NCBI GenBank assembly: GCA_000004985.1
Contig: GG738926.1
DNA: 64,000 nt
Strand: one strand, 5' to 3'
From: Naegleria gruberi
Taxonomy: Eukaryota
Both the position numbers and the translations under genes were made by a program. The notes below the pieces were generated by a model. The model was given only the letters and a program-made list of their open reading frames with translations, did not search any database and was not told where the DNA came from. Positions 9,432 through 55,913 of this stretch are shown one piece after another (the stretch's first letter is position 1; every line of letters begins with the position of its first letter).

Positions 9432-9944
9432 ATCCAATCACTTTTATCAGTTGAAGTAATTGATATTTATTCTAAAAATATTAAATGATTACCATATGAA
9501 AATCATTTAAGTGAATGTAATTTACAAAATAATAATTTAATTAAAAAGAGGAACAGTTCAATAGATAATATTTCATATAATCAACAATTAAATTCACCTA
9601 ATCAATTTATTAAGAATAATAATTTTAATAATTTATTAAATATTAATAATAATAATAACTTTAATTTAGAAATTAATAATGAAAATTCACCTAATGAAAG
9701 TATTGATTGTCAATCAATGTTAAAAAGTGTGAATTCAAATTATTCAAATTTATCTTCATTATCAAATAATTTAATGAATCCAATTTCAATTTCTAATTTT
9801 AATTCTAATATTATTATAGAAAATATAATTAATAATTTAAACACTTTAGTTTATTAAACATATAATACAACATTCAATTAATTGAAAAAATCATCTAGGA
9901 AAATTATTAGATCTTCAATTTCATTTAGAGAATTATTAAATTAA
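9432..9944 (+). pseudogene. Decayed member of the AT-hook/'SISIKDLLN' family: one reading frame with three in-frame stops and no AT-hook
   Basis: One frame reads ...LLSVEVIDIYSKNIK*LPYENHLSECN...(Asn-rich)...TLVY*TYNTTFN*LKKSSRKIIRSSISFRELLN*. It retains the family's N-terminal (SxVE, IDIY), LPYEN and C-terminal IIRxSISxxxLLN-stop motifs. Stops at 9486, 9855 and 9879. Confidence 0.5.
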
Positions 9945-10396: not shown

Positions 10397-11014
10397 TTGA
10401 TGATAACTTACCACAAATTCTCGTTAGTTGAATTTTCACCACCTCTTCAACAATCTAATAATGCTAATATTCCATCAATTGATATTTATCATGCAACCTC
10501 AACTAACATGAAATATTCCACCACCACCACCAAAACAATCACAACACAACAATTACCTAAAAGAAGAGGTAGACCATGTACTAGACGAATTGATCCATCT
10601 ATACCACTCATGACAATTACCAGAACTGAAATTATTTCAAATTCAATTGAACAACAACAATCAAATAATCTTGAAAAATTACTTCCCTATGAAAATCATA
10701 CAACCATTCAACCTCTGAAATCCAAAACCTTAACTAATTCCAATATTAATAAGAGAAAGAGATCTTCAAGTAATTCAACAATTACTAATAATACTTCATA
10801 TAATAACATTGATTGTATTCATCAACCATTGGAAAAGAAAAGTAAATTAATTGAAGATTATATTGAATCCAATGATGCAACATCACCACAACTTGCATTG
10901 CTATCAAAGCCAAACCATCAACAAAGGAGTAGTAGTGATATAAAGGGAGTAATTTCACCTCCAAATAGAAAAATTATTAGGACATCCATTTCAATCAAAG
11001 ACTTATTAAATTGA
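10397..11014 (+). CDS. Family member A: small low-complexity putative DNA-binding protein with AT-hook (KRRGRPCTRR) and conserved C-terminal IIRTSISIKDLLN
   Basis: MMITYHKFSLVEFSPP... N-terminus. RGRP AT-hook. MTITRTEI and LLPYENH motifs. The tail is identical in pattern to the paralogs at 12.6, 13.8 and 30.3 kb. Confidence 0.6.
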   Translation: MMITYHKFSLVEFSPPLQQSNNANIPSIDIYHATSTNMKYSTTTTKTITTQQLPKRRGRPCTRRIDPSIPLMTITRTEIISNSIEQQQSNNLEKLLPYENHTTIQPLKSKTLTNSNINKRKRSSSNSTITNNTSYNNIDCIHQPLEKKSKLIEDYIESNDATSPQLALLSKPNHQQRSSSDIKGVISPPNRKIIRTSISIKDLLN

Positions 11015-12595
11015 TAATATAGATGTGAGTCAATTATTTTCATTCTCATACAAATGAGGCCCGGGGACAAGTAAAAAATATATCGTTGGGGACAGCCCAT
11101 AATTAAAAATAACCAGGGTACAATTATCTGGTTGATAGAGTTGGTGAATTGTTGATTCAATTCTTAACTAAAACTACCAATGTTGCACCAATGAACAGAG
11201 TACATAGGATAGAGTAGTATGATACTTTTTGTTTTTTTGAATTTCCTTTAATGTTGGTGAGGAATGATAATTGTTAGTAAAAGAAAATTAGCTCTTTTAG
11301 CGTTGTTTTTACTTGAAAATTAGAAGAAATATTGATAATTAATAAAGAAAAAGTTGAAACTCAGAAGAGAATCATAACCCGTAAGCTCTTGTGCTCGTAT
11401 TGGCACTTTACATTTCGGAAGATAGTTTTAGGATTAACAAACAACCCTAAAATTACAAAGAAATCAATACGAAACTGAAATCCTGTTGTAAATCAGGAAA
11501 CCAACACAATCAGTGGTGGTATTATATCAATTTAATAACATTTTGATCGCACCCTTGTTGTATGAAGTAGTTTTTGAGAATACAAAATGATACTCAAAAA
11601 AGGCGAGCTGATTATCTCATCAACCAAAGAGAATCAACATCTAACAAATCAGAATCCTAACCCCATACAATTTTACTATAATTTTTGTGGTCTTTCTTGT
11701 AAAGTAATATTTGACTTTTCTATACCCAAATATTTTCCATCTGTCCGCAACAACATATTCTTTATTAGTCCCCAGGCCTCAATGGATATTTTGATTTGCA
11801 GGTGATTTCGGTAAATTTGTAATTGAAGCCTTAAAGACCAAGAGAAGAATCATGTATTAATAATAGGTGAATTTTAAGTCCGTTAAATTTTAAGACGTTA
11901 AACATGTAGAACATCAATAAGGGAATTATTAAATTAATAATTTTAATTATTACCATTTATAAATAAGAAATATGCCAGATGAAAATTTTAAGGATTTGGC
12001 AATTATTGAATAAAGACTTGATGTTATTTGAAAGGATTTCAAAGTTGGCTCATTCTTCAGCTAATTATCAAAAGATTGTTGTTTGATTTCTTCTTTAAAA
12101 CACAAAAAAGTTGTTTTTCCAATCATTTGTGAAGCCAATCTCCAGACGTGGCTAATAATTTATTCAAAACGAGGCCAATGAACATATTTGAATACTTTTA
12201 TACAAAGTGATGTAAGATAATCCGAGTGATAGGTATCATATCAATTAATCATTTTCGACACATGCCTAAATTGAAACTGATTACATTGATGTTTTAAAAT
12301 GGAACAATACAATCAATAGGTTCAAATGTCTATTTATCTCACATTAATGTGATTATACTTTTAGATTTGTTCTTCATGATATGTAGTTGAACAATGTCAT
12401 AAATGCCATTTAAAGGCCTTTAAAAATGTGATGTAAATGATCTCGGTGATGGAGATGAGAATCAACTTGTCAATAATAGTACCTTGTTCTATATTAATAC
12501 GTCATATTGTCTCGATTGGTCTTTACATCCCTCCCACAATTCAATGTTCTAAAGGTTTTATCAAGGTCAACAATCTAATTAAAAAAAGAAACAAA

Positions 12596-13018
12596 ATGTT
12601 CTACAACAAAATTTCAATGGTTGAATTTGCAAAGCCTTCAAATAATTCCAACTCTAAAATAACAAAGAAACAACACAATAATGTCCAAGTAAAAGTAACA
12701 CGTATTGAAACCAATGATATCAATCCACAAATATGTAAATTACAACCCTATGAAAGTCAATTCTACATTCAAAAACCAATTAAAAGAAATAAGAAACCAG
12801 ACGAAACTAGGAAACCTTCACAAATGAATAATACCACTATCATTACATCACCACCTCCACCACAATCAACACTACCAACAATATCATCAACATTATGTGA
12901 GTTAAATCATGTTGATGGTAGTGATTATCAAATGACTGTTAATAATAATCAAATAATGACTCAAGCAAAGAGACCAATTATAAGGACATCAATTTCAATA
13001 AACGAACTATTAAATTAA
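12596..13018 (+). CDS. Family member B (ORF 12437..13018; probable start at Met 12596, MFYNKISMVEFAKP). Lacks a clean RGRP but keeps the VTRIETN, LQPYES and IIRTSISINELLN motifs.
   Basis: Motif-by-motif correspondence with members A, C and D. AAAAATG start context at 12591-12598. Confidence 0.55.
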   Translation: MFYNKISMVEFAKPSNNSNSKITKKQHNNVQVKVTRIETNDINPQICKLQPYESQFYIQKPIKRNKKPDETRKPSQMNNTTIITSPPPPQSTLPTISSTLCELNHVDGSDYQMTVNNNQIMTQAKRPIIRTSISINELLN

Positions 13019-13779: not shown

Positions 13780-14457
13780 ATGTATTATAGTAAATTATCA
13801 ATAGTTCAATTTAAAGAAGTCAAGTCTTCAAACAAGTCATCACTGCCAACCTCCATTGTTACCAAGAGAAGACGTGGAAGACCAGCAAAGAATGATCCAA
13901 AACCAATATTACCAATAGGTTATTTACAAATGATTACCTCTACAGAATCACTAGCTAGTTCTAATAGTAGTGTTGATAAAGTGGTACTACTTGATACTCC
14001 TAATCATTGTCGACAAGAGGATCTTGATTTCAAAGGCTTGTCGCAGAGTGGTAATAGTATGACCTATTTTCATAACAAGGCTTGTTGTAGCAAGGAGGAG
14101 AGTAGCAATAATAATATTAGCTTTCTAACAACACTTAATTCGAGGCTACATCCACAACCTATTTTCAATACAACATGTAATAATAATAATTGTCATCATT
14201 CACCATCATCCACTAATAATAATAATGTAAATAATTTCATCATGATGAAGAGCAATGATGATAATATTGATATTGATAATAATACAAGAAGATGTTCAAT
14301 GTTTGTAAATTATCAATGTGATGTAGATGATGAAAATAGCAACTTTTCACAAAGTAGAAGTATTCACAGTAGTGGTAACAGCAAAGTTATTTGTATTAAT
14401 ATGAGAAATAGGCGTCCATGCAGGACTTCAATATCAATAAAAGACTTGTTGAATTAA
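13780..14457 (+). CDS. Family member C: AT-hook (KRRRGRPAKNDPKP) protein ending ...RRPCRTSISIKDLLN
   Basis: MYYSKLSIVQFKEV N-terminus, RGRPAKN AT-hook, MITSTES, Asn/Ser-rich middle, conserved C-terminal tail. Lies 165 bp upstream of tRNA-Asn. Confidence 0.6.
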   Translation: MYYSKLSIVQFKEVKSSNKSSLPTSIVTKRRRGRPAKNDPKPILPIGYLQMITSTESLASSNSSVDKVVLLDTPNHCRQEDLDFKGLSQSGNSMTYFHNKACCSKEESSNNNISFLTTLNSRLHPQPIFNTTCNNNNCHHSPSSTNNNNVNNFIMMKSNDDNIDIDNNTRRCSMFVNYQCDVDDENSNFSQSRSIHSSGNSKVICINMRNRRPCRTSISIKDLLN

Positions 14458-14621: not shown

Positions 14622-14694
14622 TCCCCCTTAGCTCAGTCGGTAGAGCGTCAGACTGTTAATCTGCAGGTCGGTGGTTCGAGCCCACCAGGGGGAG
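14622..14694 (+). tRNA. tRNA-Asn (anticodon GTT)
   Basis: Cloverleaf read by hand. Acceptor TCCCCCT/AGGGGGA. D-arm GCTC-AGTCGGTA-GAGC. Anticodon loop CTGTTAA (GTT at 34-36). T-arm GGTGG-TTCGAGC-CCACC. Discriminator G. Confidence 0.85.
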
Positions 14695-22635: not shown

Positions 22636-24717
22636 TTACACAACTGGATCAATTGAAATATAAGTCTCACAAGTACCAATTCCTTTCACTTTGACACCAG
22701 TTCTATGGGTAAACTTAGAGGCAAGATCTTGTGGTAATTTTTCATATGTTTTTGTACAAATTTGAAGGTGATTAGTAAGACTTGTAGATTGCATTCTTGA
22801 AGCAAAATTTACAGTAGCTCCCCAAACGTCATAAGCAGGCTTCTTCTTACCGACAATACCAGCAACAACTTCACCTGTACTCAAACCAATTTTAACATTC
22901 ACTTTGAATTTAGATGTTTTGTTCATATCAGAAACAATTTGTGCCATTTCAAAGGCTCCTCTTACTGCATTTTCCGCAAAATTATTATTCTGTTCTGGTA
23001 AACCACTTGCCAACATATCTATTTCTCATTAGAATCCAATTGAATTGAAATACTTACAATTATCACCAATGGTTTTGATCTTTTCCAATTGATATTTTTG
23101 TATCGTAACATCAAACTTTTCGAAAATGGAATCCAAAAAGCTTATCAGATTCTTTGGAGAAATTTCCATTGACAATTGGTTAAAGTTCTCAATGTCACTA
23201 AACATGATTGTTGCTTGATCGTGGAAGTCGTGAATAAGATCACCATTTACAACTCTAGAGGCTATAGAGGCTGGGAAAATTTGTTCAGCCAAGTGTTTGT
23301 ACTGTTCTGTCTTTGTAATGACGGCTGTCATATCTCTGGCAAACCCAAGGAAAATTCTTTGGTCCTTGTCATCTTTGATTTCAGTAATTTTAAGTTCAAC
23401 AGGAAAAATTTCTCCTGATTTTCTTTTGCCATTAACAACTCTGGTTTTGTCAACAACTCTCTTAATACCAGTCTTGATGTATCTGTTCACAAAGGCATTG
23501 TGATTGATAGCAATTTCATCAGGCATAATTACCGTCAGTGAATTGCCAATAATTTCACTTGCTCTAATACCAAAAACATGTTCAGCAGCAGGATTCCATG
23601 TGTTAACAATTGATAGAGTATCAATGGCAACGATAGGAATTGTTGAAAGTTGTGTTACTGCACTGTGGAACTGGAATGATTGTTGTTGAACTTCCCCTTC
23701 CTCAGCAGTATTATTTCCTTCATTATTTTCTTCTCCAATTAAACTCTTTCTATCCATACTAGCCTGACTGTTACCATCACCATCCTCGTCATCGTCTTCA
23801 TTGTCATCAGCAGCTGCAGCATTCTGATTCTTTAAAACATCTTCAAAATTACTTCCTTTCTGCATACCTTCAGGTTGAAGATAACAAATGAAGAATGGTA
23901 AACCATTTTTGATCATTTCGGTAATTCGTACACCAACCTTCTTGATCGGAGTTTTTGGATCCTTAATATCATACACAACCTTTTCTGCAAGCATTGATTT
24001 AGATCTAAGCTGCAAGTAATCTCTAATTCTTTTCTGAAGTTCACCTGCACTATTTTCATTCAAAATAAGGCAAACATTCTTCGACTGCAAATCTTTGAGG
24101 GATTTTCCAAACAATTCCTCACCGAAACTATTCATTGAATGAATATTTGTTTTTGTATCTACAACGAACACTGGACACATGCAAGCAGAGATATGTTCAT
24201 CCATTTGGAATGCTGGTTCTCCTTGTTCTCCATCATTATATTCTTCAACACCATCAAATTCATCTTCTGTTGGGAGGTCATCCTTGAAATCCACTATTGG
24301 TTTGTTATTGTTCATTTCCTCAATGTCATTATTTTGAGGAACATTATTTATATTGTTATTGTTGGTATTATTAATATCTTGTTTTTGAATATTATTATTT
24401 ACTGGAGGATTAGAAGAAGAAGATGTTGTCGATGGATTTTGTTGTTTCTCTGGGATATACTTTGGTTGATCCTCATAAGTCTTTGTTTTTTGTACATTAG
24501 CCTTTGTGTCGTTCTTACTAGCAACGTTATTATCCTTACTATTGTCCTTCTTTTGAGAGTTTCCTTGAGGTGGTTTGCTAACAATCGCTCCCATCGTGTA
24601 GTGTTTTTTTCTGTAGTTTTTGTTTGCGGGAAAATGGTTATTGTAGTGGTTGATTGTTTGAAAGGCAGTGATGTTGCTTTTTGTTCGCCACGCTGGTCCA
24701 TAATAGACTACCCACAA
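22636..24717 (-). CDS. Class III nucleotidyl (adenylyl-type) cyclase with two PAS domains. The catalytic domain is split by a 39-nt intron (23017..23055).
   Basis: PAS signature PIVAIDTLSIVNTWNPAAEHVFG...RKSGEIFPVELKITEI...FARDMT. Cyclase motifs FSDIENF..., EKIKTIGDN|YMLASGLPE (restored by removing the GTAAGT...TAG intron), YDVWGATVNFASRMQS. K (KIKTIGD) and D (YDVWG) at the specificity positions suggest ATP. Confidence 0.75.
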
Positions 24718-25031: not shown

Positions 25032-26270
25032 TTAAATATCAGTAACAACACCATTACTCATTGAACTGATGGTACTTCTTGTATCTGAATCATCATCATT
25101 TTTTTTCTTTCTAAAACTGAATACAGTACTAACACTTCTCACACTCTTTGTTAAACTTCTTAAATAGGTTTTGGCATCAAAATTTCCTTGATTTGCTGCT
25201 TTTCTATACCATTCCAATGCAACCTTTTCAGATTTTTCAATTCCACCCACTCCTTTCAAATAGAAATTAGCCAATTCACATTGAGCTCTGTCATTTCCTT
25301 GTAGAGCTGATTTTTGGAACCATTCAAATGCCCTTGTTAAATCCTTCTTTACAATTCTATTACCATCTTTACAAAATAATCCTAATTTACATTGAGCATC
25401 TGCATCAGATTGTTGAGCTGCCTTTTCAAAACATTCTAATGCCTTCTCTAATGATGCTGTTGTACCCTTTCCTAATTCATACATTAATCCTAAATTGTAA
25501 AAAGCTTCTGGAACATTTTGCATTGAAGATTTTTCATAATATTCGAATGCAATTGAATAATTTGATTGAATTCCAGCAAATGTTGGAGAATTTGGAATTC
25601 CCTGTTCATATAAAACACCAATACTATATTGAGCATGAGCATGTCCTTGATCAGATGATTTCTTATACCATTCAAATGCTTTCTCTTGAGATTCTAATAG
25701 AAATTCACCTTCCTCATACATGATTCCAATTCTATATTGTGCATCTGAATTACCTTGGAGTGCTGATTTTTCAAACAACTCGACTGCCTTTTCTAAATTC
25801 CTTGAAATATTGGAATTTCCATTGTAATAAATTAGACCAAGATTATATTGAGCAGCTGAATGACCTTGTTGAGCATAATTTTGTTGCATTCTCATGTTGG
25901 TGGTCAATTGAGTTTTCAAATTTTCAAGATGAAACTCTTCACATATTTTACACATTTTACAATATGTGTAAAAAGTCATATCACTATCGTAAATACCATA
26001 TTTAAACCAATCTAAAATGTATGTAAAACATTTTGGGTCACAATCAATAAAATAAATTGGCGAATTGTCAAGAATTTGGTCTTGATTCATCACTTTGACA
26101 TTTGTCATAGATTGATGGATTGACTTTTGACTAGTTATCATTGAATTTAATAAATTATTTGGTTCTCTATTATTATTAAACGTAAAAGATGCAACCGACA
26201 TGAATTTACCACCAACATTTAAATTTACTATTTGGTCAACTAATTTTTCGTTATTTTCTTGCATTGCCAA
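25032..26270 (-). CDS. BTB/POZ (T1/KCTD-type) domain protein with about 8 Sel1-like (TPR-type) repeats
   Basis: N-terminal NVGGKFMSVASFTF...YFIDCDPKCFTYILDWFKYG (T1-type BTB). Repeated AQYxLGxxYxxG...EKAxEWYxKAAxQG Sel1 units. Confidence 0.7.
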   Translation of the reverse strand: MAMQENNEKLVDQIVNLNVGGKFMSVASFTFNNNREPNNLLNSMITSQKSIHQSMTNVKVMNQDQILDNSPIYFIDCDPKCFTYILDWFKYGIYDSDMTFYTYCKMCKICEEFHLENLKTQLTTNMRMQQNYAQQGHSAAQYNLGLIYYNGNSNISRNLEKAVELFEKSALQGNSDAQYRIGIMYEEGEFLLESQEKAFEWYKKSSDQGHAHAQYSIGVLYEQGIPNSPTFAGIQSNYSIAFEYYEKSSMQNVPEAFYNLGLMYELGKGTTASLEKALECFEKAAQQSDADAQCKLGLFCKDGNRIVKKDLTRAFEWFQKSALQGNDRAQCELANFYLKGVGGIEKSEKVALEWYRKAANQGNFDAKTYLRSLTKSVRSVSTVFSFRKKKNDDDSDTRSTISSMSNGVVTDI

Positions 26271-26551: not shown

Positions 26552-29500
26552 TTATATTTGTTTCATTTCAACATTTGTAGCTGGCATTACATTTCCATTA
26601 CTCAAATTCTTATGTGAATATTTTCCTGATAATATTTTCACCACAATTGCAATAATAATGATCAGTAATAATAATAAGGGAATTAAGGAAAGAAATGCTA
26701 AATAAGCTAAATTATTAGAAGGTGTTGGTTCTGAAAGTGTTGTTTGTCTATCAACAAGGACATTTAATTTAGCTTCTTTCCACATTATAGGTTGCATTAA
26801 CATGACATTTGACTTGTCGTCATAAACAATCATTTTGGCAATTGCTTGAGTTTCATCTCCAAAACTCATTTCATGATAAATTATTCTATTCTGCACTGAT
26901 ATAGATCTATATAATTCCAAACTTTGATAATATGAAATTTTGATATAGCTCATCACATTCTTACTTGATTGGGGATGTGTGAAATAATTTTCTGGGAAAA
27001 GAGCTTCCAATCGAACAGTTTCTCTCAGTTTAGCAGACGAAACATTCCATCTCAGTATTATTTCATCACTGTTAAAACCTTTAAATTGACATTGTTGACC
27101 TACAAACGTTGGTTGACAAGAACAAGTTCCATTCAATTGACAATTTCCATTTCCTGAACAAACTTTTGAATCTGAAAATGAAATATTGTAACATGAATAT
27201 GGAATTGAACAATCTAGACCTGAATACATGACATTTGAACATTGACATTTGTTGTAATCGACACATATTCCATTTTGGGAACAAACAGCATTATCTGTTG
27301 CATTCAATCCAAAACAAATTGGAATTCTACATTCAGGACCTGTGTACATTGTGTCATTGAAGCATTTACATGTATCCACATCAATACATTTGCCATGTCC
27401 ACCACCACAAACATATGGATCATCACTGGACATATCAAAACAAACAATCTTTTCACAATTCACACCACTATATCCATGTTGACATTCACACATATCAAAA
27501 TCATAACATTGTCCATGTCCAGAACAAACACTTGAATTGGTTGAACTAATTCCAAAACAGGAAGGTGATTTTGGAAGTGCCAACTTTCTAAGATACATAT
27601 TATCTGCAATGAATAAATCACCATCTGCATTAATGGTCATAGTTTCAGGTCCTATCAATGTCGTATCTGTACCCAATTGATAATTCATTGTTGGATTGGA
27701 ACTTTGTCCATTTCCTGCTATGGTAATAATACTTCCATTGAGAAGAACTTTGAAAATTCTATAATTGTCTCTATCAGAAATGAAGATTTCTCCTTCATCA
27801 TTAACAACTACACTTGTAGGACTAATCAGATTCAAATAATATTGAGTAAACACATTTTCCGACTAAACTTACCTTTTAAGGGAAGCATCAATGGCCAAAA
27901 TTCCATCTTGAAAATCATCCAAAATCTCATTGGAAAATCTTGTTGGTTGTGGAGCAGGAGGTGAATAGATACCATTTCCTGCAACTGTTGTAATGGTACT
28001 ATCATTTGCTGAAATCTTTCTAATTCTTCCATTTCCAGTATCTTTTTCATATTCGAAACTTTGAACAGTTCAACAACTTACCTGCAATGTAAATATCACC
28101 AGTTGATCGATGATAAAATCCACCAGCTGGATTAGCCAACTTGGCATATTCTGGTAAACCATTATCACCACCATATCCAATTGAAGTTCCACAAAAATCT
28201 GAAATTATTCCACTTTGTAAATCAACTTTTCTAATTTTGGATGAACCACTCTCAACTATATAAATCATATTTGAATAATCACCAAAAACTTGAACTGGTC
28301 GATTTAACATGGCACTTGTTGCTGGTCCACCATTTCCTGAATTTCCCAAACGTGAAATGCCAGCAAATAATATTTGTTGACCTGTTGTCACATCCATTTT
28401 GTAAACATTATTGTAAAACACAACTGCATAATAAATATTACCAGAATCGTCAACAAATAACCCACGCGGAACATTAACCATCAAATTTCCACCAATATAA
28501 TCAATAAATTTCGTATACAATTGACGATCCCCAATTGAGTAATAAATCTTTCTTAATAATCCACCTTGCACATCACCAATATAAATATCCTGATGATTAT
28601 TAATCTTGGCTGATTTGGAATTTATAAATGGAAATATGTATTGACCATATGTGGCATCGATAGCTCTAATTCCATCACCTGATGAAAAAGAATGACCATT
28701 ACCAACATAGGTATCAATTATTTGAGTTGGAATGTTGATTCTTCTTACTCTCAATTGACCAGTATCTAAACAAATTAGTTTCGTATAACAAAATTCTATT
28801 AGAAATAAAGACATACCTCCAATATAGATAAATTGATCATCTTTCGAAATGTAAACATCTTGAGGAAGCATAAAAGAACTTGTCAATGCATTCATGTTAT
28901 CTCCATTGTAACCTTGTTGTCCATTTCCCGCCACAAATCTCAAATAACCATCTTTATCAATTTTCTTTACTTTTTCGTTTGAACTTTCCACCCAGAAAAC
29001 TTCGCCTTGTGAGTTTAGTTTAACTCTTCTTGGTGTGAAAAGTTTGGCAGTTGAAGCTAGGACATTTTGATCATCACCAAGTTTACCACTGATACCTGCT
29101 AGTGTTGAAATTATTCCATTAGAATCTATCTTTCTAATGAGATAACTATTTGTATCTGAAATAATATTCGAAATGTTGTGAATTTAAAAACTAACCTGCA
29201 ATGTAAACTTCATTCTTCTTCTCATCGACATAAACTCCCTGAGGCATTGCTAAGAAGATTTGAGTTGCCAAATTACCAGTGTTAACCAGTTTACCATTTC
29301 CAGCAATTGTGTAAATTTTCCCATTCGAAACTTTCTTAATCTTTGCATTTAAAGTATCACAAATGTAAATCTCTTCCTGTTGATTTACATAGATACTATC
29401 TGGTGTATTCAAGACAGCTCCAAGTGCAGAATCTCCATCCATAGAATCACCTACATTCGAATAAAATTAACATTCGTCCGTATATTTCTCTCAACAACTT

Positions 29501-29971
29501 ACCATTACCACTCTCACTTCCAGCAACTGTTTCCAAACTTCCATCATTCAACACCTTAACAACATAATTCTTCATTACAAAGTAAACAATTGGTGGTAAG
29601 TAAATACTCTTCTCTAAAACAAATATATGATTTGGTTCGTAGGGAGTTTTCATCAAGGTTGAAACGATTCCAATCTTGGAAACCTTTCGAATTCTTTTGG
29701 AGGTGTATTCAGCAATGTACATGGTACCATCAGATGTAACATGAATTCCACTTGGACTATTAACACATGTAGTATTACCATAATAACCATCTCCACAATT
29801 ATCTGTTCCACTAATTGTTGTTAGCATGTAATTATTATCACTACCATTGGACAATGAAATTAACATGGTTGCAATAACCAACAATAGAGATAATATGACA
29901 ATGATTGGCCATGATAATTTTCTTCTTCTTCTTGTTGAATAACAAGCATTTCGGATAAAAGAAACACTCAT
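26552..29971 (-). CDS. Multi-exon type-I membrane protein: signal peptide, NHL-repeat beta-propeller, EGF-like Cys repeats, C-terminal TM anchor. Introns at 29452..29503, 29156..29195 and 27822..27872; the junction near 28047-28076 is unresolved.
   Basis: N-terminal LSWPIIVILSLLLVIATMLISL signal. Repeated NHL signatures (IYIADxxNxRIRKVxxNGxIxTxAGNG). EGF-like CSGHGQCYDFDMCECQHGYSGVNCE repeats. TM segment LAFLSLIPLLLLLIIIIAIVV. GTAAGT/GTTAGT...AG introns of 40-52 nt restore continuous NHL repeats. Confidence 0.65.
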
Positions 29972-30275: not shown

Positions 30276-31040
30276 TCAATTGAGTAATTCTTTTATTGAG
30301 ATTGAGGTACGAATTATTCTCCTTGTTGTTGGACTATTGGTTGAAAGAGTGTTGCTATGCATTACAAGAGTGGATGTTGTTGGTATTGATAATGTTTCAA
30401 TAAAATCTTGTGTAGTATTAGATACACAATTTGATGAAGTGGATGAGATTGGTGAATGACTTGATTGTCTCTTATTTACATATTTTGGGGTGGAATATTT
30501 TGAATGATGAGAAGGTGAAATGTTCTCAGCATTGAACAATGAATTAAGTGAGCTAGAGGAAGAACATGATAATGATGGTGAATTACAATGGGAAGGAGCA
30601 ACAATATTTGAATTGTTTAAAAGTACAGGAACAGCTGGAATAATATGAGTTGTGGAGCTTACTTTGGATGATAATGTAGCAGATACTACAGATGGTAAAT
30701 AGGAACAAGATAACAAGCTATTATTAGATGTAGCTTTCTTGTTCTTCTGCTTGGTAATTCCAGATGAGAGACGAATCTCACTCTCATAAGGATAACATTG
30801 AGTTTTTGCTTGTGAATAGGAAGAGTGGGAGGAAGCATTGAACATTTCAGTCTTGGTTATCATCATTTTCACAGACGAGCTGTTTGGATTCTTGGCTGGT
30901 CGTCCTCTCTTTCGTGGCATTTCAGGATTGGAAGATAAGGAAGATGATAAAGGATTGTTGTATTGTCCAACACAAGTATTGTGCTGCTTTGAAGGGGTAG
31001 CAAATTCAACGACGGAAAACTTGGTATAGCAACCAGGCAT
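30276..31040 (-). CDS. Family member D (dispersed, inverted copy): AT-hook (PRKRGRPAKNPNSS) protein ending ...TRRIIRTSISIKELLN
   Basis: MPGCYTKFSVVEFATP N-terminus, RGRPAKN, MITKTEM, CYPYESE, Ser-rich middle, conserved C-terminal tail. Same motif order as members A-C. Confidence 0.6.
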   Translation of the reverse strand: MPGCYTKFSVVEFATPSKQHNTCVGQYNNPLSSSLSSNPEMPRKRGRPAKNPNSSSVKMMITKTEMFNASSHSSYSQAKTQCYPYESEIRLSSGITKQKNKKATSNNSLLSCSYLPSVVSATLSSKVSSTTHIIPAVPVLLNNSNIVAPSHCNSPSLSCSSSSSLNSLFNAENISPSHHSKYSTPKYVNKRQSSHSPISSTSSNCVSNTTQDFIETLSIPTTSTLVMHSNTLSTNSPTTRRIIRTSISIKELLN

Positions 31041-31781: not shown

Positions 31782-33440
31782 TTATTGTGAAACATTGGAG
31801 AGAGTACCGAGTGATCTTCTCTTCTTATTTTCATATTCCTTGTACCACATGCGATTCAATTTGGCATTTTCCTCAACTGCCCTAAAGTATTGGAAATGGT
31901 CATTAATTTGTGCTGGATCCATATTAACAGTTCCACCTCTAGTGTTTAAATGTAACAATTCTTCAAAACTCTGTTGTAATTGTTTGGATCTCTTCTTCCA
32001 AATTTTACCAAGTACCATATCTGAATCGAATGGAATGTGTAAATCAGTATAAACTGTATGGATGAAACGTGTTGATTTCTCACCAGTTCCAAAGAACATG
32101 TAATTGAAGAGAATTTCAGCATCAACTCTATGTTCCTTATTCTTTCTCAAATCTTCTTCAATTTTGCAAGTGTGGCCAATATTCATATAACAATTGACAC
32201 TTTCATCATAAATTGAAGTCATGGTGTGAGGTAAATCTCTATTCTTGAATAAACTCAAGTTCATTAAAATTCCCAATTCACCAATTTGAAGAGCCAGTGG
32301 TGGATGTTCAGTGGTGTAAATGTTATCTCTATGGTCGTATGCTAAATGATGTGATTTGAGCAAATCATTGGAAGTCTTATTACATGGTGAAATGTATTTC
32401 AATAATTTAAAATCATCCATTAAGGTGTTATCCAATTTGAAACGAGTATTCATATCACAATATGTTGTCCAAACATCTTTAACTGAATATGGCAGATGCA
32501 TTACAATCTTGAACAGTTTCATTCCCTTCATTCTATCCTGACCTATCGAATAGGATGTTTTTGAGACGAATGTTTGCAGTGGATTTGGCTTTTCATGATA
32601 GGAAAGTTCTTTCCAATCAGGTGTGTCTTCACTCAACGTATAGGCAAAGAAAATGTCCTTCTCTGTCATGAGTTGAGATTGAAAATCTTTTGGTTTGAAT
32701 CGAATATCAACATTGTAACCATTAGAAACATTAATGGCAATAGTTCTTGTGTAATCTTTACCCTTCTTTGATAAAAACTTGTGTAATGTAGCAGATCTTA
32801 CATATCTCGGAAATTGGTCATAACTGTTATTCATTAAATTATTATACATCATTGTAAATAAAATTGTAAACTATTTAACAACTCACCTCAAATCCAACAT
32901 TACTTGATATTCAACCTTTCCAAACAATGCATGTGGTTCCAAATAATCAATCATCAACATGACATAATATTCATAATGATTATTATTCGAATCATTAACC
33001 TTCTCCAAACAATTTGTTACATTCTCCCACATGTTCAATGTAGAATCAATTACAACCTGACTCAAATTCAATCCCTTCGGTCCATTGCCAAAATATGTAC
33101 TAATTATTTGCTTGGCAACACTCACTAGATGGAGCACCTTCTTTACACATTCATTCTCCTTCCTCTCAACACCACCATTAGAAACTACCAACAGATTATC
33201 TTTAGTCTTGTGATAATCCAACTTGTAATGATCGAGAGAATTGAGAAAGAGCAATGGTTCATCATTGTGTTGAAATCTGAGAAATTCTATAAAGTTTTCA
33301 CGTGCCTCTGGTGCTTTCATCACCTCCTCAAATACAACTGCATAGTGAGCAGGAATAAACTTTGACATTTTTTGTTGTCGTTTCGTTATCGACGTCGTGG
33401 TTATTAGAAGAAGATAATCTGCTGCATTTGATGGGTTCAC
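31782..33440 (-). CDS. Protein with an N-terminal RGS-like domain. Two exons (33440..32887 and 32823..31782) joined by a 63-nt GTGAGT...CAG intron.
   Basis: FEEVMKAPEARENFIEFLRFQHNDEPLLFLNSLDHYK resembles the RGS core. Splicing joins ...LDL|S|YDQFPRYV in frame. The C-terminal 350 aa have no domain I recognise. Confidence 0.5.
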
Positions 33441-34331: not shown

Positions 34332-37300
34332 ATGGTCATTCGTACAGAATCTTCAACGTCTCTGTCGAGTGTATTACACGAAACATCATCCACCAATGGA
34401 TCAGTTTCCAATAGCACATCTAGTAGTGCTTCTTCATCATCCTTCACAAATACAAGTAATACACTCAGATATGGTGATATTATTTCATTGGCTATTTACT
34501 TTAATCCAACCATTCAATCATCACAACAACAACAACAAACAATTTCATCATCATCCTTTGATAAATTAAATAATTCAATGATGGATATTTTACATGATAG
34601 AAATTCTACTACAACACCATCAACACCAACTTCCAACTCTCCATTTCCATCATCACCATCCGCACCTACTACCACTACAACAACAACAAGCCTTGAACAA
34701 ATTGTTGGGTTTTTATCGATAAAGGGTTTACCTGGTCATACAAGATGTGGTCTATCTGTTGATGAATCAATTTTAAAGTCTTTTGACAATTCATTGTTTA
34801 TGGTCTGTCAAGGAGATACTTATACAGCAAGAAAAAAGTTTAACAAATTTCAAAGTCATCTTCAAAGTTTACAAAATTCCAATAATAATGGTGCTGTCAA
34901 TCATGTTAATAGTACTAATAATTTGAATGCTAGTAGTTATAGTTTTGGATCTTCATTTAAAAATCAACAAGTTAATACTAATAACAAACAACAAGTAATG
35001 ATTAATAATTTAAATTATCAAAATCAGTTAAATGAATTGAAGGAACGTATGAATCGTGAAGATCAGGAAAATACAATTGAAAAGGAAAGATCGTGGGGTA
35101 AACCTATACTTTATGGTCAACGTATTCAATTGTATCATATCAAATCTGGCATGTATTTAAATGTACTGAGATCGAATGCTGATTTGGAAAAATCTTCATT
35201 GAAATTATCTTTGAGTGAAGGTGATAGAATGTGTCATTTTCAATTTGCTCCACACTTTAAATTCAGAACAGAAGGAGAACCAATTCGTTTGACTGATAAG
35301 GTTATTATTATGAATGAAAAAACCAAACATTCTGTTCACATTTCACACTACAAGTATGTGAGACCAATTATTGTTAGAGATTTTGATAGATATGAAGTGA
35401 ATGCTAGTAGTCATCCTGGTGATAATATTTGGATTTTAAGATTGTACAGATCATACCTTCCTATGGATCAATTATTTATCAAGGGAGGCGATACAATTCG
35501 TATTGTACATCGTGACTTGTTGGGTGCTCTCTATCATCCAACTCCTTCTATTGAGAATACATCTGCTACTGTAGTTTCAACACCAACAACATCTTCAGAC
35601 GAAAGTTGTTCACTCAACTTGAATGGTAAATATAGTAGCTCTAGTATTACTACTCTATTCCAAATTGAAGGTCTTGATAGTTCGAGAGGTGGAATCATGT
35701 ACTATGCAACTCCTTGTAGATTTAAACACGTTTCTACAGGTAAATATATTGCTGCTAAACAAGTCGAAGTTCCTGATATTGAAGGAAACTCAGGTTCTCT
35801 TATTGGAAATAGTAACAACAATACAGCAACTACTACTGGTGCCACCAATAATACTGCCACATCAACCAATACAGTAAGTGCAGCTAGAAGTGGTTGGAGA
35901 AATTTACGTCGTCGTGTTAAAATCAAATTGAAATTAGTCTTGACAGATAATCCTAGAGATGAAGCTAGTGTATTCTATTTGTACTCTTCCGAGAATTCTA
36001 ATCAATTCACAACTTCTGATCCAATTCTTGGCCAAAGTTTACTTCGTATCAAACATGCTCAATCCAATACATGGCTCAGAGCCAACGATTTGAGTAACAA
36101 GATTACTTTTAATAATAGCAATAACAATAGTAATAACTTGATGGAATTATGGTTTGACTTGATTCAAAGAGAAAAAGACGTATTTTCAATGGAACATGTT
36201 AATAATACTTTCCAAATTAACTTGATCAAGGAAATTTATCCAATTCTAACAAATTTTGATATTAATTCTCATTATCAAAGAAATGACATTGACATTTTGT
36301 TGAATGCTCTCAAGTTAGTCATTTATTTATGTACAGATTCGATACAAGAAGATCCATTGAAACGTGAAGGGTCTCCTCATACTGAAATTCAGAACCACTT
36401 TAAAGAAATGAATATTATTGATGCCATCTTTACAATTATAGATTTATTAGATAACAATAACAATGCTATCAAAATGACAAGCACCCCTAGAGACTCATCT
36501 CCAATGTTACGTCGTTCTAGTATGCTGACTGATAACAATGAAACAACTGTATATAGTACGAGATTTAATAGTATTCTTGTACAAATGTGCTACAGAGCCA
36601 TTAAGCAATTGGCTAAACAAAATATTGTCAACTGTACACATGTGCTAAATAAGTATTTTACAACCATGCAAGATCACTTGTCGAGAGACGTTGGAGGTCA
36701 AGAGGTTTCTAATGCTCTTGTTGAAATTATTCACAACAATATGGAAGTTTTGGAACAAATTCCTAGTGAGAAGATTAATCACTTTTTCAAATTGATTACC
36801 ACTAGACAAAAGAAACCACTTTTTGTTTCCTTTTTGTCTAATCTGTGTAGATGTGGAGAAAGACCGGTTACAAAGAATCAAAAACATCTTGTCATGCTTC
36901 TTTCTGAAATTGATTGTAGAAACGTTTTCTATCTTCCAGAATATGATGATAGAGATGGTAAAATTTATGTTTACTGCAATGATGTGGATTCTATTGAATC
37001 TGAATCTCAAGTAGCAATAGATGAAGGAGTTACAGTCATTGATGAAACCAAAAAGGCAGAGCGTATTCTCTTGTCGGAACTTTCATCATACAATAACCAA
37101 ATGTTTAGAATTTTAATAGAAGGACTAAGCTTGTTATCTTCTTTATGTGTTGGTAGACATTTGGCAGGTATTAACTATGTTTCTGAATTATTACCATTGG
37201 ACTTGGTTATGGGAGTTGTTGAAAACGAATCTTATGGTATTGAGTTGAGAAGTGCCATGTGTGAAATCTTAGAATACTGTTTCCTTGATAACACCTCAAC

Positions 37301-40300
37301 TGGTGAGTGGCCTGCAATTAACCTGAGTCGTCCACTCGATCATGGCAATGCAAGAGAGGGAGCTAGAAATACCCAAACATCATCTAATAAGAAGGGTCAA
37401 GTTGAATTTGTTGACTATAGAAATAGATTTAAATCATTGAGATTATTTTTAATTGAATTCTTCCAAGCCAGTAAGAATTATCAATTAGAAGCAGAAAGAA
37501 CACCACTCATTTACAATTTAGTCAAAATCAGCTACAAATGCCTAATTTACCGTATTTTTAATCCATATGGCAACGATAGCGATTCACTCCAATTAAAGGC
37601 TAAGCTGGAACCAACTAATGCACCAATGTCTAACTCTGAAAGCTTTAAACTAATTGTAGAAGGTCAGGATGAGTACTTGTACTCCATGAAGGAAATGGAA
37701 GAATTCTTTAGTGCTTTATTGAAGACTCTTGATTCAACCAATGATAAGGGTGATAGAGCTACCATGTTTGATGACATTGAACAAAATTTAAATACCATGA
37801 AGATTAAGAAGAAGATTCTTGATATTTTCCTCTATGCTATGGATTTAAGAATTGACTATAGAATTTCTCTTATTATTACTGCCTACAATGCAAGAAACAA
37901 GATACTTATCACAGAAAATCAATTGAATGAATTCATCAAGAAAACAATTTATCAACCTGTTAACTTTTTCCAATTTGATAATGACAGCAGTGGCTCATAC
38001 AAGAACTTTGCATTCCCACTTTTAATTTTATTTAAATATCAAAATAGAGAAATTCCAGAAACAGCTTTGAAACTTTTGCAAAGATCTTTCAATCAAGCTA
38101 AGGAATTGAAAGAAAATTTACAAAAGGTTTCAATTTTAATTTCACAAAAATCAAGAAAGGCTTATCAATTGATTTATGCACTCTTTAATAGAATTCAAGT
38201 TCTTGTTTCTACAAGTACCTTCACCGGAGGTGATACATCTCCTGATTTTACCCTATTCAAAGACACTTGCTCTCAGTTAGGAAAATTAATGAAGGAAATT
38301 AAGGGTACGAAATCAGCATTCCGTAATCTTGGAGGCCATGAGCTTATCCTAAAGTGTTTGAGTACTTCATATCCTCAATACATCAAGGATAGGTTGAGTT
38401 TGTGCTGTATTGAATTGTTGACCGAGTTTGTAAGAGGGGACCAGAAGAATCAATTGGAACTCTTTAGAGAATTCAGATTCTTATTGGAAATCATGTCAAA
38501 TCAACTGGATACAACCGAGTTGTTGACAGAAATAGTACGTGAAAATGATCAAATCTTACTTTCAATGATCGACCCATTACTGATTAAATTATACTTGGAA
38601 AAAATAATATCAGTAGGTGCCAAGTCCTATCATTTAAACTTTTTACGTATCTTGACATGTGACTCTATGGGACATTCAATTCCTGCCAATCAAAACGAAA
38701 TTATTAATAATTTGAAAGAAGATTACCGTTCAATGATTGTTCTCTATAATGAAGAAGACTCAATGAAGGAACGTGAACGAATGATCAAAAATAATGACCA
38801 TCTTATTATTGGATCTGATTTGAATTACCATATTAACCTTTTATATTTGTTGAGAGATTGTACTCGTGACAAGGTTGGTCTTGCTGAAGGATCTGTACAG
38901 GCTATTTTACCATTCTCTGAGATGTTGTCTCATTTGACTGACTGTTATCTTATTCCTCCAGTTAGAGATCCAATGATGAAACTTTTGACAGAGTTGTACT
39001 TTATTACTGAAAAAGAGTCCACTCAAGATTTGTCTGATGTTAAAATTTGGAAACTTTTCCAAAAAATCAATGTTGAAATATCAACTTGGCTTCAAAATGA
39101 TGGTTGTATGAGATATCCAAAGGAATTTGAAGATGCATACTATTCTAAATATCCAGGAACAGAGATTCGAACTGTTTCAACTAATAACACAAATCAATCA
39201 AATTCTGATGAAACTAACAGTGAGGAGGTATTCAAGCGTGCATTCTTCAATGGATCTGATGAAGAAATATTTGTCAATGATATTTACATTTTCAAAGTTT
39301 TACTTCCTTTCATTGAAAGCTTCTTTGAAATGGTTTTCAATAAGGATGTTAAAAAAATGTTGTTGCAAAAGGAAAATAAGGAAGAAATCAAGACCATTAT
39401 TTATGATTTATTGAATAATATCACCCAAATTTACCTACATTGCTCATCCCATCGTGAAGATGTCAAGAGATGCCACATGTCCATTCAAAAGATTATGATA
39501 ACATCCGACATTGATGTGGACAGCAAATTCAAGCAACTTACCAAATTGGCTTTGGCTAAATCATCTACTGCCATGATGATCAAACAAGAATCTAATAAGG
39601 TTATGAAGCAAAAATATGCTGTTAAGAATATTGAAGAAGATTTCTTGCTCAAATACAAGAATTTCCTTGAAGAACTTGAAAAGAAAGGATTCTTCAAAGA
39701 GAAGGAACAATCTGATTTACCAAAGTTTGCTCAATTGCTGCAATCACATATTGAAGAATACTTACCAAGACTTGTTATGGTTCTTAAAATAATGATTGAA
39801 AATGGCGTCACAAGAGAAATGCAAGAAACATTCTTGGATTCAATTTCTACAATTGGTGCCATAGTACAACAGTACAATGCCAAGGAGGATTATAACTTCT
39901 CTGTACAACATTCCATTCCTGAATTGGTTCTCTTTTTGATTTGTTCAAGCAATAATGTATTTTCCAAACATGGTTTGGAGTTGGGAATTTCAACACTTGA
40001 TGGTGGTAATATTGAAAATCAACAACTTTATAATCGTCTCTTGAGAAGTGGAAATTATGAAAATTTCTTTGTGTCTATCAAGAACAAGATTAAACAATCC
40101 ATCTTGGAAGAAAAAGAAATGAGGAAGAGAGGAGCAACAAAATTGACAACCGAGTTGACATCCTATGCATGGGAGGTTTTAAGATTCTTACAATTGTTGT
40201 GTGAAGGTCACAACTTGGAGAATCAGCAAATGTTGCAAGATCAATCATCATTCAACAGAATGAGTATTGATCTTGTCAGTGAGTGCATAGAATATGTGAT

Positions 40301-55839: not shown

Positions 55840-55913
55840 GCCGTCATAGCTCAGTTGGATAGAGCACAGGACTTCTAATCCTGGGGTCGTGGGTTCGAGC
55901 CCCATTGTCGGTA
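55840..55913 (+). tRNA. tRNA-Arg (anticodon TCT); one T-T mismatch in the acceptor stem
   Basis: Hand-folded. Acceptor GCCGTCA/TGTCGGT. D-arm GCTC-AGTTGGATA-GAGC. Anticodon stem CAGGA/TCCTG with loop CTTCTAA. T-arm GTGGG-TTCGAGC-CCCAT. Confidence 0.75.

What the first reader, a model, noticed from the sequence alone, without database searches (positions are those of the whole stretch)
30276..31040. Fifth family member dispersed 16 kb away on the opposite strand
ORF 31040..30276 (-) has the same motif order (KFSVVEF, PRKRGRPAKNP, MITKTEM, CYPYESE, ...RRIIRTSISIKELLN-stop) as the tandem array. It sits alone between the NHL/EGF membrane-protein gene and the RGS-like gene. Its AT-hook, RGRPAKN(D/P), is nearly identical to that of copy C (13780) but differs from copy A, suggesting a C-to-D duplication followed by transposition or inversion.
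Basis: seen in the sequence. Interest (0 to 1): 0.55.

Follow-up and report, generated by a model that had tools for sequence, protein, structure and literature searches.

The report
Old dispersed paralogue, Naegleria AT-hook family
The ORF is a real, intact and anciently diverged member of a small-protein family found only in Naegleria gruberi-like amoebae, not a recent transposed copy of array gene C; the family's invariant tail closely resembles the yeast MATalpha2 peptide that recruits the Tup1 co-repressor.

Summary
ORF 31040..30276 (-) is 254 aa and 100% identical to N. gruberi hypothetical protein NAEGRDRAFT_82132. It carries all five motifs in the stated order and lies between an NHL/EGF gene and an RGS gene.

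The proposed C-to-D duplication followed by transposition is refuted:
- D is no closer to C than to the other members. C is D's nearest relative in 1 of 1000 bootstraps; among A, B and C, A is nearest in 93%.
- RGRPAKN or RGRPxKN also occurs in unlinked family members, so it is the likely ancestral form.
- No flanking DNA or repeats are shared, and synonymous sites are saturated.

The family has at least 8 intact paralogues in N. gruberi on at least 5 scaffolds, plus members in two environmental or sequencing runs. No member was found elsewhere in 1.84 billion representative proteins. The window also holds two decayed relics in the array.

The proteins are basic and predicted to be disordered. 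They carry one AT-hook between two predicted strand motifs, and an invariant C-terminus RTSISIK(D/E)LLN. That tail matches the Tup1-binding N-terminus of yeast MATalpha2 (IPIKDLLN) at 7 of 8 positions. N. gruberi encodes both Tup-like and Groucho-like co-repressors, and no partners for them are known.

My best guess, which is inferred and untested, is that these are small AT-hook adaptors that recruit such a co-repressor. As a dispersed paralogue the finding is ordinary. The family is a modest new lead.

The parts
30276..31040 (-). Gene D: intact 254-aa family member (NAEGRDRAFT_82132), stop codon included
   Evidence: HMM 119.6 bits
31002..31028 (-). N-terminal motif Y-T-K-F-S-V-V-E-F (residues 5-13); predicted beta-strand 8-13
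   Evidence: (S9 and F13 invariant in 15-16 sequences)
30882..30917 (-). AT-hook P-R-K-R-G-R-P-A-K-N-P-N (residues 42-53)
   Evidence: Pfam AT_hook 14.4 bits, below the 17.4 cut-off; RGRP at 30908; R45, G46 and R47 nearly invariant
30843..30863 (-). Motif M-I-T-K-T-E-M (residues 60-66); predicted beta-strand 61-67
30777..30797 (-). Motif C-Y-P-Y-E-S-E (residues 82-88); an [LQ]PYE-type motif present in about half of the members
30279..30323 (-). Invariant C-terminal motif R-R-I-I-R-T-S-I-S-I-K-E-L-L-N (residues 240-254), ending at the stop codon; predicted helix 249-253; resembles the Tup1-binding motif of MATalpha2 and the eh1 motif
   Evidence: comparison sequence
9579..9944 (+). Pseudogene Z at the head of the tandem array: LPYENH ... 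RKIIRSSISFRELLN*, with two in-frame stops and no N-terminal motif or AT-hook
   Evidence: i-Evalue 4.9e-5
10400..11014 (+). Gene A (204 aa from the ATG at 10400). The annotated model P0003 starts at an internal Met and omits the conserved N-terminal motif
11902..11940 (+). Possible second relic Z2: ...TCRTSI-RELLN**, preceded by stop codons; only the 3' end of a gene survives
   Evidence: blastn 83-92% over 26-35 nt to environmental members; HMM i-Evalue 0.57, not significant alone
12596..13018 (+). Gene B (140 aa), a family member without an AT-hook
13780..14457 (+). Gene C (225 aa), AT-hook RGRPAKND

Best explanation
SHOWN. ORF D is a genuine, intact, protein-coding member of a lineage-restricted family. 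The family has at least 8 intact paralogues in N. gruberi, plus relatives in two environmental or sequencing runs. It evolves by birth and death: the window holds a head-to-tail array of three intact genes and two decayed relics, and other copies are scattered singly across scaffolds. D is one of the old scattered copies. It is about 30-45% identical to every other member even on conserved columns, and it is not a recent derivative of C. The proteins are short (131-263 aa), basic (D has pI 9.7) and rich in Ser/Thr/Asn. They are predicted to be disordered except at a few short conserved motifs.

INFERRED mechanism. The single AT-hook (KRGRPxKN) contacts the minor groove of AT-rich DNA. It sits between two conserved strand-forming motifs, (Y)xKFSIVEF and MxIxSTE, which may pair into a hairpin that presents it. 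The invariant extreme C-terminus RTSISIK(D/E)LLN forms a short amphipathic helix. That helix docks on a partner protein, most plausibly the WD40 propeller of the Tup-like or Groucho-like co-repressor that N. gruberi is reported to encode. On this reading the family are small DNA-tethered repressor adaptors. The AT-hook-less copy B could act as a non-DNA-binding competitor. The invariant R-T-S just before the helix could allow control by phosphorylation; this last point is speculative.
For: Real gene and family:
- 100% match to an annotated protein.
- ORF length far beyond chance.
- Family HMM hits at D, A, B and C with i-Evalues from 2e-24 to 6.5e-38.
- 16 members share the same motif order, each with the start codon just before motif 1 and the stop codon right after motif 5.

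Selection acts on the peptide:
- In the last 11 codons of 10 members, 212 pairwise codon differences are synonymous and 75 are non-synonymous. For A-D alone the counts are 29 and 7.

Ancient divergence and no shared flanks.

Restricted distribution:
- An exhaustive HMM search of 1.84 billion representatives returned 16 hits. Thirteen are family members, from N. gruberi or runs ERR1078381 and SRR25266754. The other three (P0011, P0012, P0015) match only the AT-hook region in several stretches.

Disorder plus motifs:
- Two AlphaFold runs (7-row and 16-row alignments) gave mean pLDDT 50 and 53.
- Both gave the same three elements: strand 8-13, strand 61-67 and helix 249-253. These are the most confident segments, at about 67-78.
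- Composition is 51% S+T+N+P+Q, with 24 K+R against 9 D+E.

AT-hook: an RGRP core flanked by K/R in most members.

Co-repressor link:
- The MATalpha2 N-terminus is MNKIPIKDLLNPQ.
- Ile4, Leu9 and Leu10 are needed to bind the Tup1 WD40 domain, and the IxIxxLL spacing parallels eh1 FxIxxIL.
- The family tail ISIKDLLN (A, C) matches IPIKDLLN at 7 of 8 positions, and ISIKELLN (D) at 6 of 8 plus a conservative D-to-E change. All three mutation-sensitive positions match.
- Copley 2016 reports both a Tup-like and a Groucho-like protein in N. gruberi, found no EH1/WRPW-bearing transcription factors there, and suggests that Tup-type pockets may bind eh1-like motifs lacking the initial Phe.
Against: - No experiment or interaction prediction supports DNA binding, nuclear localisation or co-repressor binding.
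- The Pfam AT_hook score is below the gathering threshold in every member (best E 0.01). A single AT-hook binds DNA weakly on its own (general knowledge).
- The motif match to MATalpha2 is 8 residues long, was found post hoc, and would be convergence rather than homology.
- Copley notes that without the initial F/Y the eh1 pattern is poorly specified and that many amphipathic helices fit it.
- In MATalpha2 the motif is N-terminal; here it is C-terminal.
- The same 13 residues of MATalpha2 are also listed as an atypical nuclear localisation signal, so the resemblance is functionally ambiguous.
- Copy B lacks the AT-hook yet keeps the other motifs, so DNA binding is not essential to every member.
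- The predicted strand pairing has only moderate confidence.
Confidence: 0.4

Rival explanations
1. One reading: D arose recently from array copy C by duplication and then moved by transposition or inversion to its present site on the opposite strand.
For: C and D share the heptapeptide RGRPAKN. They lie on the same scaffold, 15.8 kb apart, on opposite strands.
Against: - D is not closer to C. Bit scores are D-A 50.1 and D-C 43.1, and C is nearest to D in 1 of 1000 bootstraps.
- RGRPAKN or RGRPxKN also occurs in the unlinked members P0009, P0010 and P0014.
- 3 of the 7 RGRPAKN codons differ between C and D, and there is no DNA similarity outside the motif-coding segments or in the flanks.
- No terminal repeats or target-site duplications were found.
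Confidence: 0.03
2. The family is nuclear and associated with DNA or chromatin, as proposed, but the conserved C-terminal helix does something other than recruit Tup or Groucho. It could be a nuclear-targeting signal, a generic PhixxLL-type docking helix for another cofactor, or a phospho-regulated docking site. The protein would then act as an architectural, HMGA-like factor or as an activator adaptor.
For: - The MATalpha2 residues 1-13 that the tail resembles are also catalogued as an atypical nuclear localisation signal.
- IKELL also fits a PhixxLL amphipathic pattern.
- Copley warns that the eh1 pattern without F/Y is poorly specified.
- The invariant R-T-S-I fits basophilic kinase consensus sites (my own knowledge, not tested).
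- About half of the members have K/R-x2-4-PY (for example KLQPYE and KTQCYPYE), which resembles the C-terminal half of a PY-type nuclear localisation signal (from memory, not tested).
Against: Invariance of 8-11 consecutive residues at the extreme C-terminus across paralogues that are otherwise about 25% identical is tighter than typical nuclear localisation signals need. The residue-for-residue match covers exactly the positions whose mutation breaks Tup1 binding.
Confidence: 0.33
3. The family does not bind DNA at all. The RGRP segment is merely a basic patch (a nuclear localisation signal, RNA-binding or protein-binding), and the proteins are disordered regulators or substrates in some other pathway, such as differentiation, the cell cycle or signalling.
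For: The Pfam AT_hook score is below threshold in all members. Copy B has no AT-hook but is otherwise intact. P0016, P0017, P0018 and P0019 have RGRK instead of RGRP. There is no folded DNA-binding domain.
Against: The R-G-R core is nearly invariant and is flanked by K/R, as in true AT-hooks. The only non-family hits of the profile are multi-AT-hook proteins and, in the PDB, the AT-hook region of GLYR1.
Confidence: 0.18
4. D is a spurious ORF or a dead pseudogene, or the family is carried by a mobile element, which would explain the dispersal.
For: The protein is low-complexity and Ser-rich with no Pfam domain. Family members are scattered over many scaffolds, and two decayed copies lie in the array.
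Against: - The reading frame is intact, and the conserved motifs sit exactly at the start and the stop.
- Synonymous changes far outnumber non-synonymous ones in the conserved tail.
- ORF length is well beyond chance.
- There are no shared flanks, terminal repeats or transposase-like neighbours.
- In the environmental contigs, neighbouring genes differ from locus to locus.
Confidence: 0.04

Closest known systems
Tup1-interaction motif at the N-terminus of yeast MATalpha2 (MNKIPIKDLLNPQ), read as a Phe-less variant of the eh1 motif
   Same: I-x-I-K-D-L-L-N matches at 7 of 8 positions for copies A and C, and at 6 of 8 plus a D-to-E change for D. The match includes the three positions (I4, L9, L10) whose mutation abolishes Tup1 binding. 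The motif sits at an extreme terminus of a DNA-associated protein, and the host organism encodes a Tup-like protein.
   Different: The motif is C-terminal here and N-terminal in alpha2. There is no homeodomain and no sequence similarity outside the motif, so at best this is convergence. Binding is untested.
Metazoan eh1 (engrailed homology 1) Groucho/TLE-binding motif, consensus FS[VI]xx[IL][LM]
   Same: Positions 2-7 (S-I-x-x-L-L) fit the consensus. A short amphipathic helix is predicted. N. gruberi has a Groucho-like protein whose pocket carries Leu at one of the two discriminating pocket positions, in place of the usual aromatic residue.
   Different: Position 1 is Ile, not the defining Phe or Tyr. 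The family N-terminal motif FSIVEF matches only positions 1-3. The strict consensus is found once in the six-frame translation of the window, and not in any family member.
HMGA-type AT-hook architectural proteins
   Same: Small, basic, intrinsically disordered proteins with an RGRP AT-hook core flanked by basic residues.
   Different: There is one AT-hook instead of three, no acidic C-terminal tail, and extra conserved terminal motifs. One member (B) lacks the hook, and four members have RGRK.
Plant EAR-motif repressors that recruit TOPLESS (short C-terminal LxLxL or DLNxxP motifs)
   Same: The same logic applies: a short hydrophobic motif at the extreme C-terminus of a small DNA-associated protein recruits a WD40/LisH-type co-repressor (comparison from my own knowledge).
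   Different: The motif sequence differs (ISIKELLN against LxLxL), there is no homology, and a TOPLESS-type partner in Naegleria was not examined.

Membership tests
Unnamed N. gruberi family (A, B, C, P0005, P0007/8, P0010, P0019 and others) | Five motifs in fixed order: N-terminal xKFSxVEF, AT-hook, MxIxxTE, (L/Q)PYE, and C-terminal RxIIRTSISIK(D/E)LLN followed by the stop | tested here: met
   D has all five. Family HMM 119.6 bits, i-Evalue 6.5e-38.
AT-hook (Pfam PF02178) | Score at or above the Pfam gathering threshold (17.4 bits) | tested here: not met
   D scores 14.4 bits, E 0.035. Five of 16 members match at E<=1, best E 0.01. Short-motif models often fall below threshold.
AT-hook (Pfam PF02178) | R-G-R-P core flanked by basic residues | tested here: met
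   D has PRKRGRPAKN. RGRP is found only in A, C and D across the six-frame window. R45, G46 and R47 are nearly invariant in the family. Absent in B; RGRK in P0016-P0019.
AT-hook (Pfam PF02178) | Binds the minor groove of AT-rich DNA | not testable with these tools
   Needs EMSA, footprinting or NMR.
HMGA proteins | Three AT-hooks plus an acidic C-terminal tail | tested here: not met
   D has one RGRP. The C-terminus is RTSISIKELLN, not acidic.
eh1 motif (Groucho/TLE ligand) | Consensus FS[VI]xx[IL][LM] beginning with Phe (or Tyr) | tested here: not met
   The tail is I-S-I-K-E-L-L, with Ile at position 1. The regex finds no family member. Consensus as given.
eh1 motif (Groucho/TLE ligand) | Hydrophobic spacing i, i+2, i+5, i+6 in a short helix | tested here: met
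   I247, I249, L252, L253. Helix 249-253 in both AlphaFold models.
MATalpha2-type Tup1-interaction motif | IxIxxLL with Ile and Leu-Leu at the mutation-sensitive positions | tested here: met
   ISIK(D/E)LL in D, A and C. Reference sequence and mutation data.
MATalpha2-type Tup1-interaction motif | Physical binding to the WD40 domain of a Tup or Groucho co-repressor | not testable with these tools
   No multimer prediction or interaction assay is available, and the Naegleria co-repressor sequences could not be fetched.
MATalpha2-type Tup1-interaction motif | A Tup or Groucho partner is present in the same organism | not tested
   Reported in the literature for N. gruberi (Copley 2016). Not verified here.
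Recent segmental or transposed duplicate of copy C | D is closest to C; flanks or terminal repeats are shared; synonymous divergence is low | tested here: not met

The most novel reading that the evidence does not exclude
This family may be the missing class of ligands for the Tup-like and/or Groucho-like co-repressors of Naegleria. They would be minimal repressors made of a single AT-hook plus a Phe-less eh1/alpha2-type docking helix at the extreme C-terminus. If so, recruitment of WD40 co-repressors by an IxIxxLL/FxIxxIL-type helix would operate in a discoban (excavate) lineage. That would mean it either dates back to the last eukaryotic common ancestor or was reinvented with almost the same peptide as in yeast MATalpha2.
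Probability: 0.22. Interest if true: 0.65.

Novelty: new variant of a known kind. Interest (0 to 1): 0.33.

Why it matters
As stated, the finding is routine: one more paralogue of a lineage-specific gene family, 16 kb from a tandem array. Its proposed origin is wrong.

The family as a whole is more useful. It has no Pfam model, no solved relative and no mention in the literature searched. It is confined to N. gruberi-like amoebae. Its one absolutely conserved element is nearly the same peptide that yeast MATalpha2 uses to recruit Tup1.

Copley (2016) showed that N. gruberi, unusually, encodes both Tup-like and Groucho-like co-repressors, and could not find any motif-bearing partners for them. 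This family gives a concrete set of candidates that can be tested cheaply with peptide pull-downs and point mutants. A positive result would bear on how old helix-in-propeller co-repressor recruitment is among eukaryotes. A negative result would still define a new family of short-linear-motif proteins in a model free-living relative of the pathogen N. fowleri.

Tried and rejected
1. Pfam scans of D, A, B and C and of all 16 members returned only sub-threshold AT_hook matches and noise.
2. A profile search of the PDB returned only the AT-hook region of GLYR1 at E 0.48.
3. A word-indexed search with D alone found only D itself. Profile searches added only N. gruberi and environmental members.
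4. An exhaustive HMM search of 1.84 billion representatives found no member outside those sources.
5. A scan of JGI metagenome contigs for the C-terminal pattern gave 141 pattern matches, none confirmed as a relative.
6. An exact-sequence look-up of D's contig found nothing on record, so no synteny comparison was possible. The genome collection holds only bacteria and archaea and was not used.
7. Two AlphaFold runs gave low-confidence, largely disordered models. No fold search was run, because matches to such models are meaningless.
8. DNA comparison of genes plus flanks, and repeat finding around D, showed no shared flanks, terminal repeats or breakpoints.
9. I looked for a conserved 3'UTR element after seeing blastn matches that run about 15 nt past the stop codons. 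The alignment shows only AT-rich sequence there, with no conserved element.
10. An in-frame FSIIQF 90 nt upstream of C is separated from it by a stop codon and looks like chance.
11. Literature searches for the locus tags and accessions, and for Naegleria plus AT-hook, found nothing on this family.
12. The kinase next to the environmental member in L001 shows only generic kinase similarity to the Kelch-kinase next to C, so there is no evidence of a duplicated gene pair.
13. dN/dS between orthologue pairs (P0005/P0006 and P0019/P0017) could not be computed, because the N. gruberi DNA for those loci is not available here.
Full report
**What the window is.** ORF 31040..30276 (-) is 100% identical over all 254 residues to hypothetical protein NAEGRDRAFT_82132 of Naegleria gruberi, on a 174,974-bp scaffold. 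The window is therefore nuclear DNA of this heterolobosean amoeba, with about 32% G+C. The bacterial-code ORF lists are usable because most of these genes have no introns.

- A frame this long is expected about 2e-4 times in the window by chance.
- In a six-frame scan of all 64 kb, the C-terminal motif followed by a stop codon occurs exactly five times: at 9915, 10985, 12989 and 14428 (+) and at 30305 (-).
- The N-terminal motif occurs at A, B, C and D, plus one in-frame chance hit upstream of C that is cut off by a stop codon.
- RGRP occurs only in A, C and D.
- A family HMM scores D at 119.6 bits.
- The neighbours are as described: NHL/EGF exons at 26552-29971 (-), and an RGS domain at 32883-33440 (-) followed by a 356-aa ORF with no Pfam match.

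**Family inventory in the window.**
- Intact genes: A 10400-11014, B 12596-13018, C 13780-14457 (all +) and D (-).
- Pseudogene Z lies upstream of A at about 9579-9944. It reads LPYENH ... RKIIRSSISFRELLN*, has two in-frame stops, and lacks the N-terminal motif and the AT-hook.
It reads TCRTSI-RELLN** and is preceded by stop codons. It was picked up because its DNA is 83-92% identical over 26-35 nt to the 3' ends of environmental family members. The HMM alone does not find it significant.
- The array therefore shows gene birth and death.
- B has lost the AT-hook.
- The public model of A (P0003, 168 aa) starts at an internal Met and drops the conserved N-terminal motif. The ATG at 10400 restores it.

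**Family beyond the window.** Profile searches and source look-ups add more N. gruberi paralogues on other scaffolds:
- P0005 (1.0 Mb scaffold)
- P0007 and P0008 (94% identical, possibly alleles)
- P0010 (207 kb scaffold)
- P0019 (747 kb scaffold)

Further members come from one ENA metagenome run, ERR1078381 (P0006, P0009, P0013, P0016, P0017, P0018), and one Logan run, SRR25266754 (P0014).
- P0006 is 93% identical to P0005 on the conserved columns.
- P0017 is a near-copy of P0019.
- The metagenome organism is therefore a close relative of N. gruberi.

The exhaustive search of 1.84 billion representatives returned 16 hits. Thirteen are family members and three are unrelated multi-AT-hook proteins. 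No named N. fowleri, N. lovaniensis or other eukaryotic protein appeared. There is no Pfam family, no solved relative and no mention in the papers searched.

That is what I find.
- BLASTP bit scores are D-A 50.1, D-C 43.1 and D-B 31.6.
- On 120 well-occupied alignment columns, D is 44-45% identical to P0007/P0008, 40% to A, 36% to C and 33% to B.
- C is D's nearest neighbour in 1 of 1000 column bootstraps. Among A, B and C alone, A wins 932 times.
- RGRPAKN recurs in P0009, and RGRPxKN in P0010 and P0014. It is therefore the likely ancestral state, and copy A's RGRPCTRR is the divergent one.
- C and D differ at 3 of the 7 RGRPAKN codons.
- Genes plus 500-bp flanks share DNA similarity only in the short segments that encode the terminal motifs.
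- Only 14-24 nt chance repeats flank D.
- All pairwise identities in the family, apart from the two near-identical pairs and P0016/P0018, lie between 24% and 45%. This is a star-like, old radiation.
- At least four other paralogues sit on other scaffolds, so a solitary copy is normal for this family.
- An ancient inversion cannot be tested without a related genome, but nothing calls for one.

**The gene is under selection as a protein.** In the last 11 codons of ten members with DNA in hand, 212 pairwise codon differences are synonymous and 75 are non-synonymous. The latter fall almost entirely at the K/R/N/Q and D/E positions. For A-D alone the counts are 29 and 7. The peptide is conserved, not the DNA. 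Sequence just past the stop codons is merely AT-rich.

**What the protein looks like.**
- D is 23% Ser and 51% S+T+N+P+Q, with pI 9.7.
- Two AlphaFold runs, with 7-row and 16-row alignments, gave mean pLDDT 50 and 53.
- Both runs gave the same three elements: strand 8-13 (FSVVEF), strand 61-67 (ITKTEMF) and helix 249-253 (IKELL). These are the most confident segments, at about 67-78.
- The AT-hook lies in the loop between the two strands.
- Invariant columns across 16 sequences are S9, F13, R244, S246, I247, S248, L253 and N254. Nearly invariant columns are R45, G46, R47, I249 and L252.
- This is a disordered protein built from short linear motifs.

**How it most likely works (inferred).** The RGRP core flanked by K/R is the signature of an AT-hook, which binds the minor groove of AT-rich DNA (established knowledge). 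The Pfam score is below threshold in every member.

The tail I-S-I-K-(D/E)-L-L-N has the hydrophobic spacing of the eh1 motif (FxIxxIL). It is almost the same peptide as the N-terminus of yeast MATalpha2, MNKIPIKDLLNPQ. In MATalpha2, Ile4, Leu9 and Leu10 are required for binding the Tup1 WD40 domain (Komachi 1994, as cited by Copley 2016). Copies A and C match IPIKDLLN at 7 of 8 positions. D matches at 6 of 8, plus a D-to-E change.

Copley (2016) makes several relevant points:
- N. gruberi encodes both a Tup-like and a Groucho-like protein.
- The Groucho-like protein has Leu at a discriminating pocket position.
- No EH1- or WRPW-bearing Naegleria transcription factors could be found.

Putting these together, my best guess is a DNA-tethered mini-repressor: the AT-hook binds DNA and the C-terminal helix recruits the co-repressor propeller. 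I rate the mechanism at roughly 0.25-0.4. That D is a genuine, old paralogue I rate above 0.9.

**Cautions.**
- The motif match is short, was found post hoc, and would be convergent.
- Without the leading Phe or Tyr the eh1 pattern is loosely defined, and the strict consensus is not met.
- The same MATalpha2 residues are also listed as an atypical nuclear localisation signal, so the tail could be a targeting signal or dock on a different cofactor.
- B lacks the hook, and four members have RGRK.
- No interaction, localisation or DNA-binding test is possible with these tools.

**Comparison with known systems.** The family works most like repressors that carry an eh1-type or alpha2-type motif, and like plant EAR-motif proteins (a short terminal motif that recruits a co-repressor). 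It resembles HMGA proteins in being small, basic, disordered and AT-hook-bearing. It is a member of none of these:
- the eh1 consensus fails at position 1;
- HMGA needs three hooks and an acidic tail;
- there is no homology to MATalpha2 outside the 8 residues.

**Verdict.** As a finding about genome dynamics it is ordinary. As a by-product it defines an undescribed Naegleria-restricted family with a testable link to Tup/Groucho co-repressors. Interest 0.33. The most novel reading still open has probability about 0.22 and would merit about 0.65.

Noticed in passing
window 11902-11940 (+): Short relic of a further family member between A and B. It reads ...TCRTSI-RELLN** and is preceded by stop codons. 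Its DNA is 83-92% identical to the 3' ends of environmental members.
   Followed up: partly
window 9579-9944 (+): Pseudogene at the head of the array. It keeps LPYENH and RKIIRSSISFRELLN* but has two in-frame stops and no N-terminal motif or AT-hook.
   Followed up: yes
window 10400-10510 (+): The public gene model for copy A (168 aa, starting MKYST) omits the family's conserved N-terminal motif. The upstream ATG at 10400 gives 204 aa with MITYHKFSLVEF, so the annotated start is probably wrong.
   Followed up: partly
window 12596-13018 (+): Copy B is intact and keeps the N- and C-terminal motifs, but it has no AT-hook (SKITKKQHN in its place). It may be a non-DNA-binding variant.
   Followed up: partly
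window 14622-14694 (+) and 55840-55913 (+): tRNA-Asn(GTT) lies 165 nt downstream of copy C and just before the Kelch-kinase gene. tRNA-Arg(TCT) lies at 55.8 kb.
   Followed up: yes
window 4001-8000: Extremely AT-rich stretch: G+C is 15% at 4-6 kb and 10% at 6-8 kb, against about 32% elsewhere. Only small tandem repeats were found at 3.8 and 5.0 kb. Its nature is unknown.
   Followed up: partly
window 34332-42665 (+): Single 2777-aa ORF with Ins145_P3_rec, MIR, RIH and RIH_assoc domains, indicating an IP3-receptor/ryanodine-receptor-like channel.
   Followed up: partly
window 31782-33440 (-): The RGS-domain ORF (32883-33440) is followed on the same strand, after a 30-nt gap, by a 356-aa ORF (31782-32852) with no Pfam match. 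They are probably one gene with a short intron or frame change, giving an RGS domain plus an uncharacterised C-terminal domain.
   Followed up: no
window 14705-17959 (-), 23029-24717 (-), 25032-26270 (-): Signalling genes surround the family: a Kelch-repeat protein kinase, a PAS plus adenylate/guanylate cyclase fragment, and a BTB plus Sel1-repeat protein.
   Followed up: partly
L001-L006 (ENA ERZ929261, run ERR1078381): One metagenome run carries at least six family members. Two are near-identical to N. gruberi paralogues (P0006 to P0005; P0017 to P0019). It therefore contains a close relative of N. gruberi, and P0009, P0013, P0016 and P0018 have no annotated NEG-M counterpart.
   Followed up: partly
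window 8901-9353 (+): 150-aa Cys-rich ORF with a signal-peptide-like N-terminus and a hydrophobic C-terminus, no Pfam match, lying directly upstream of the array's pseudogene.
   Followed up: no
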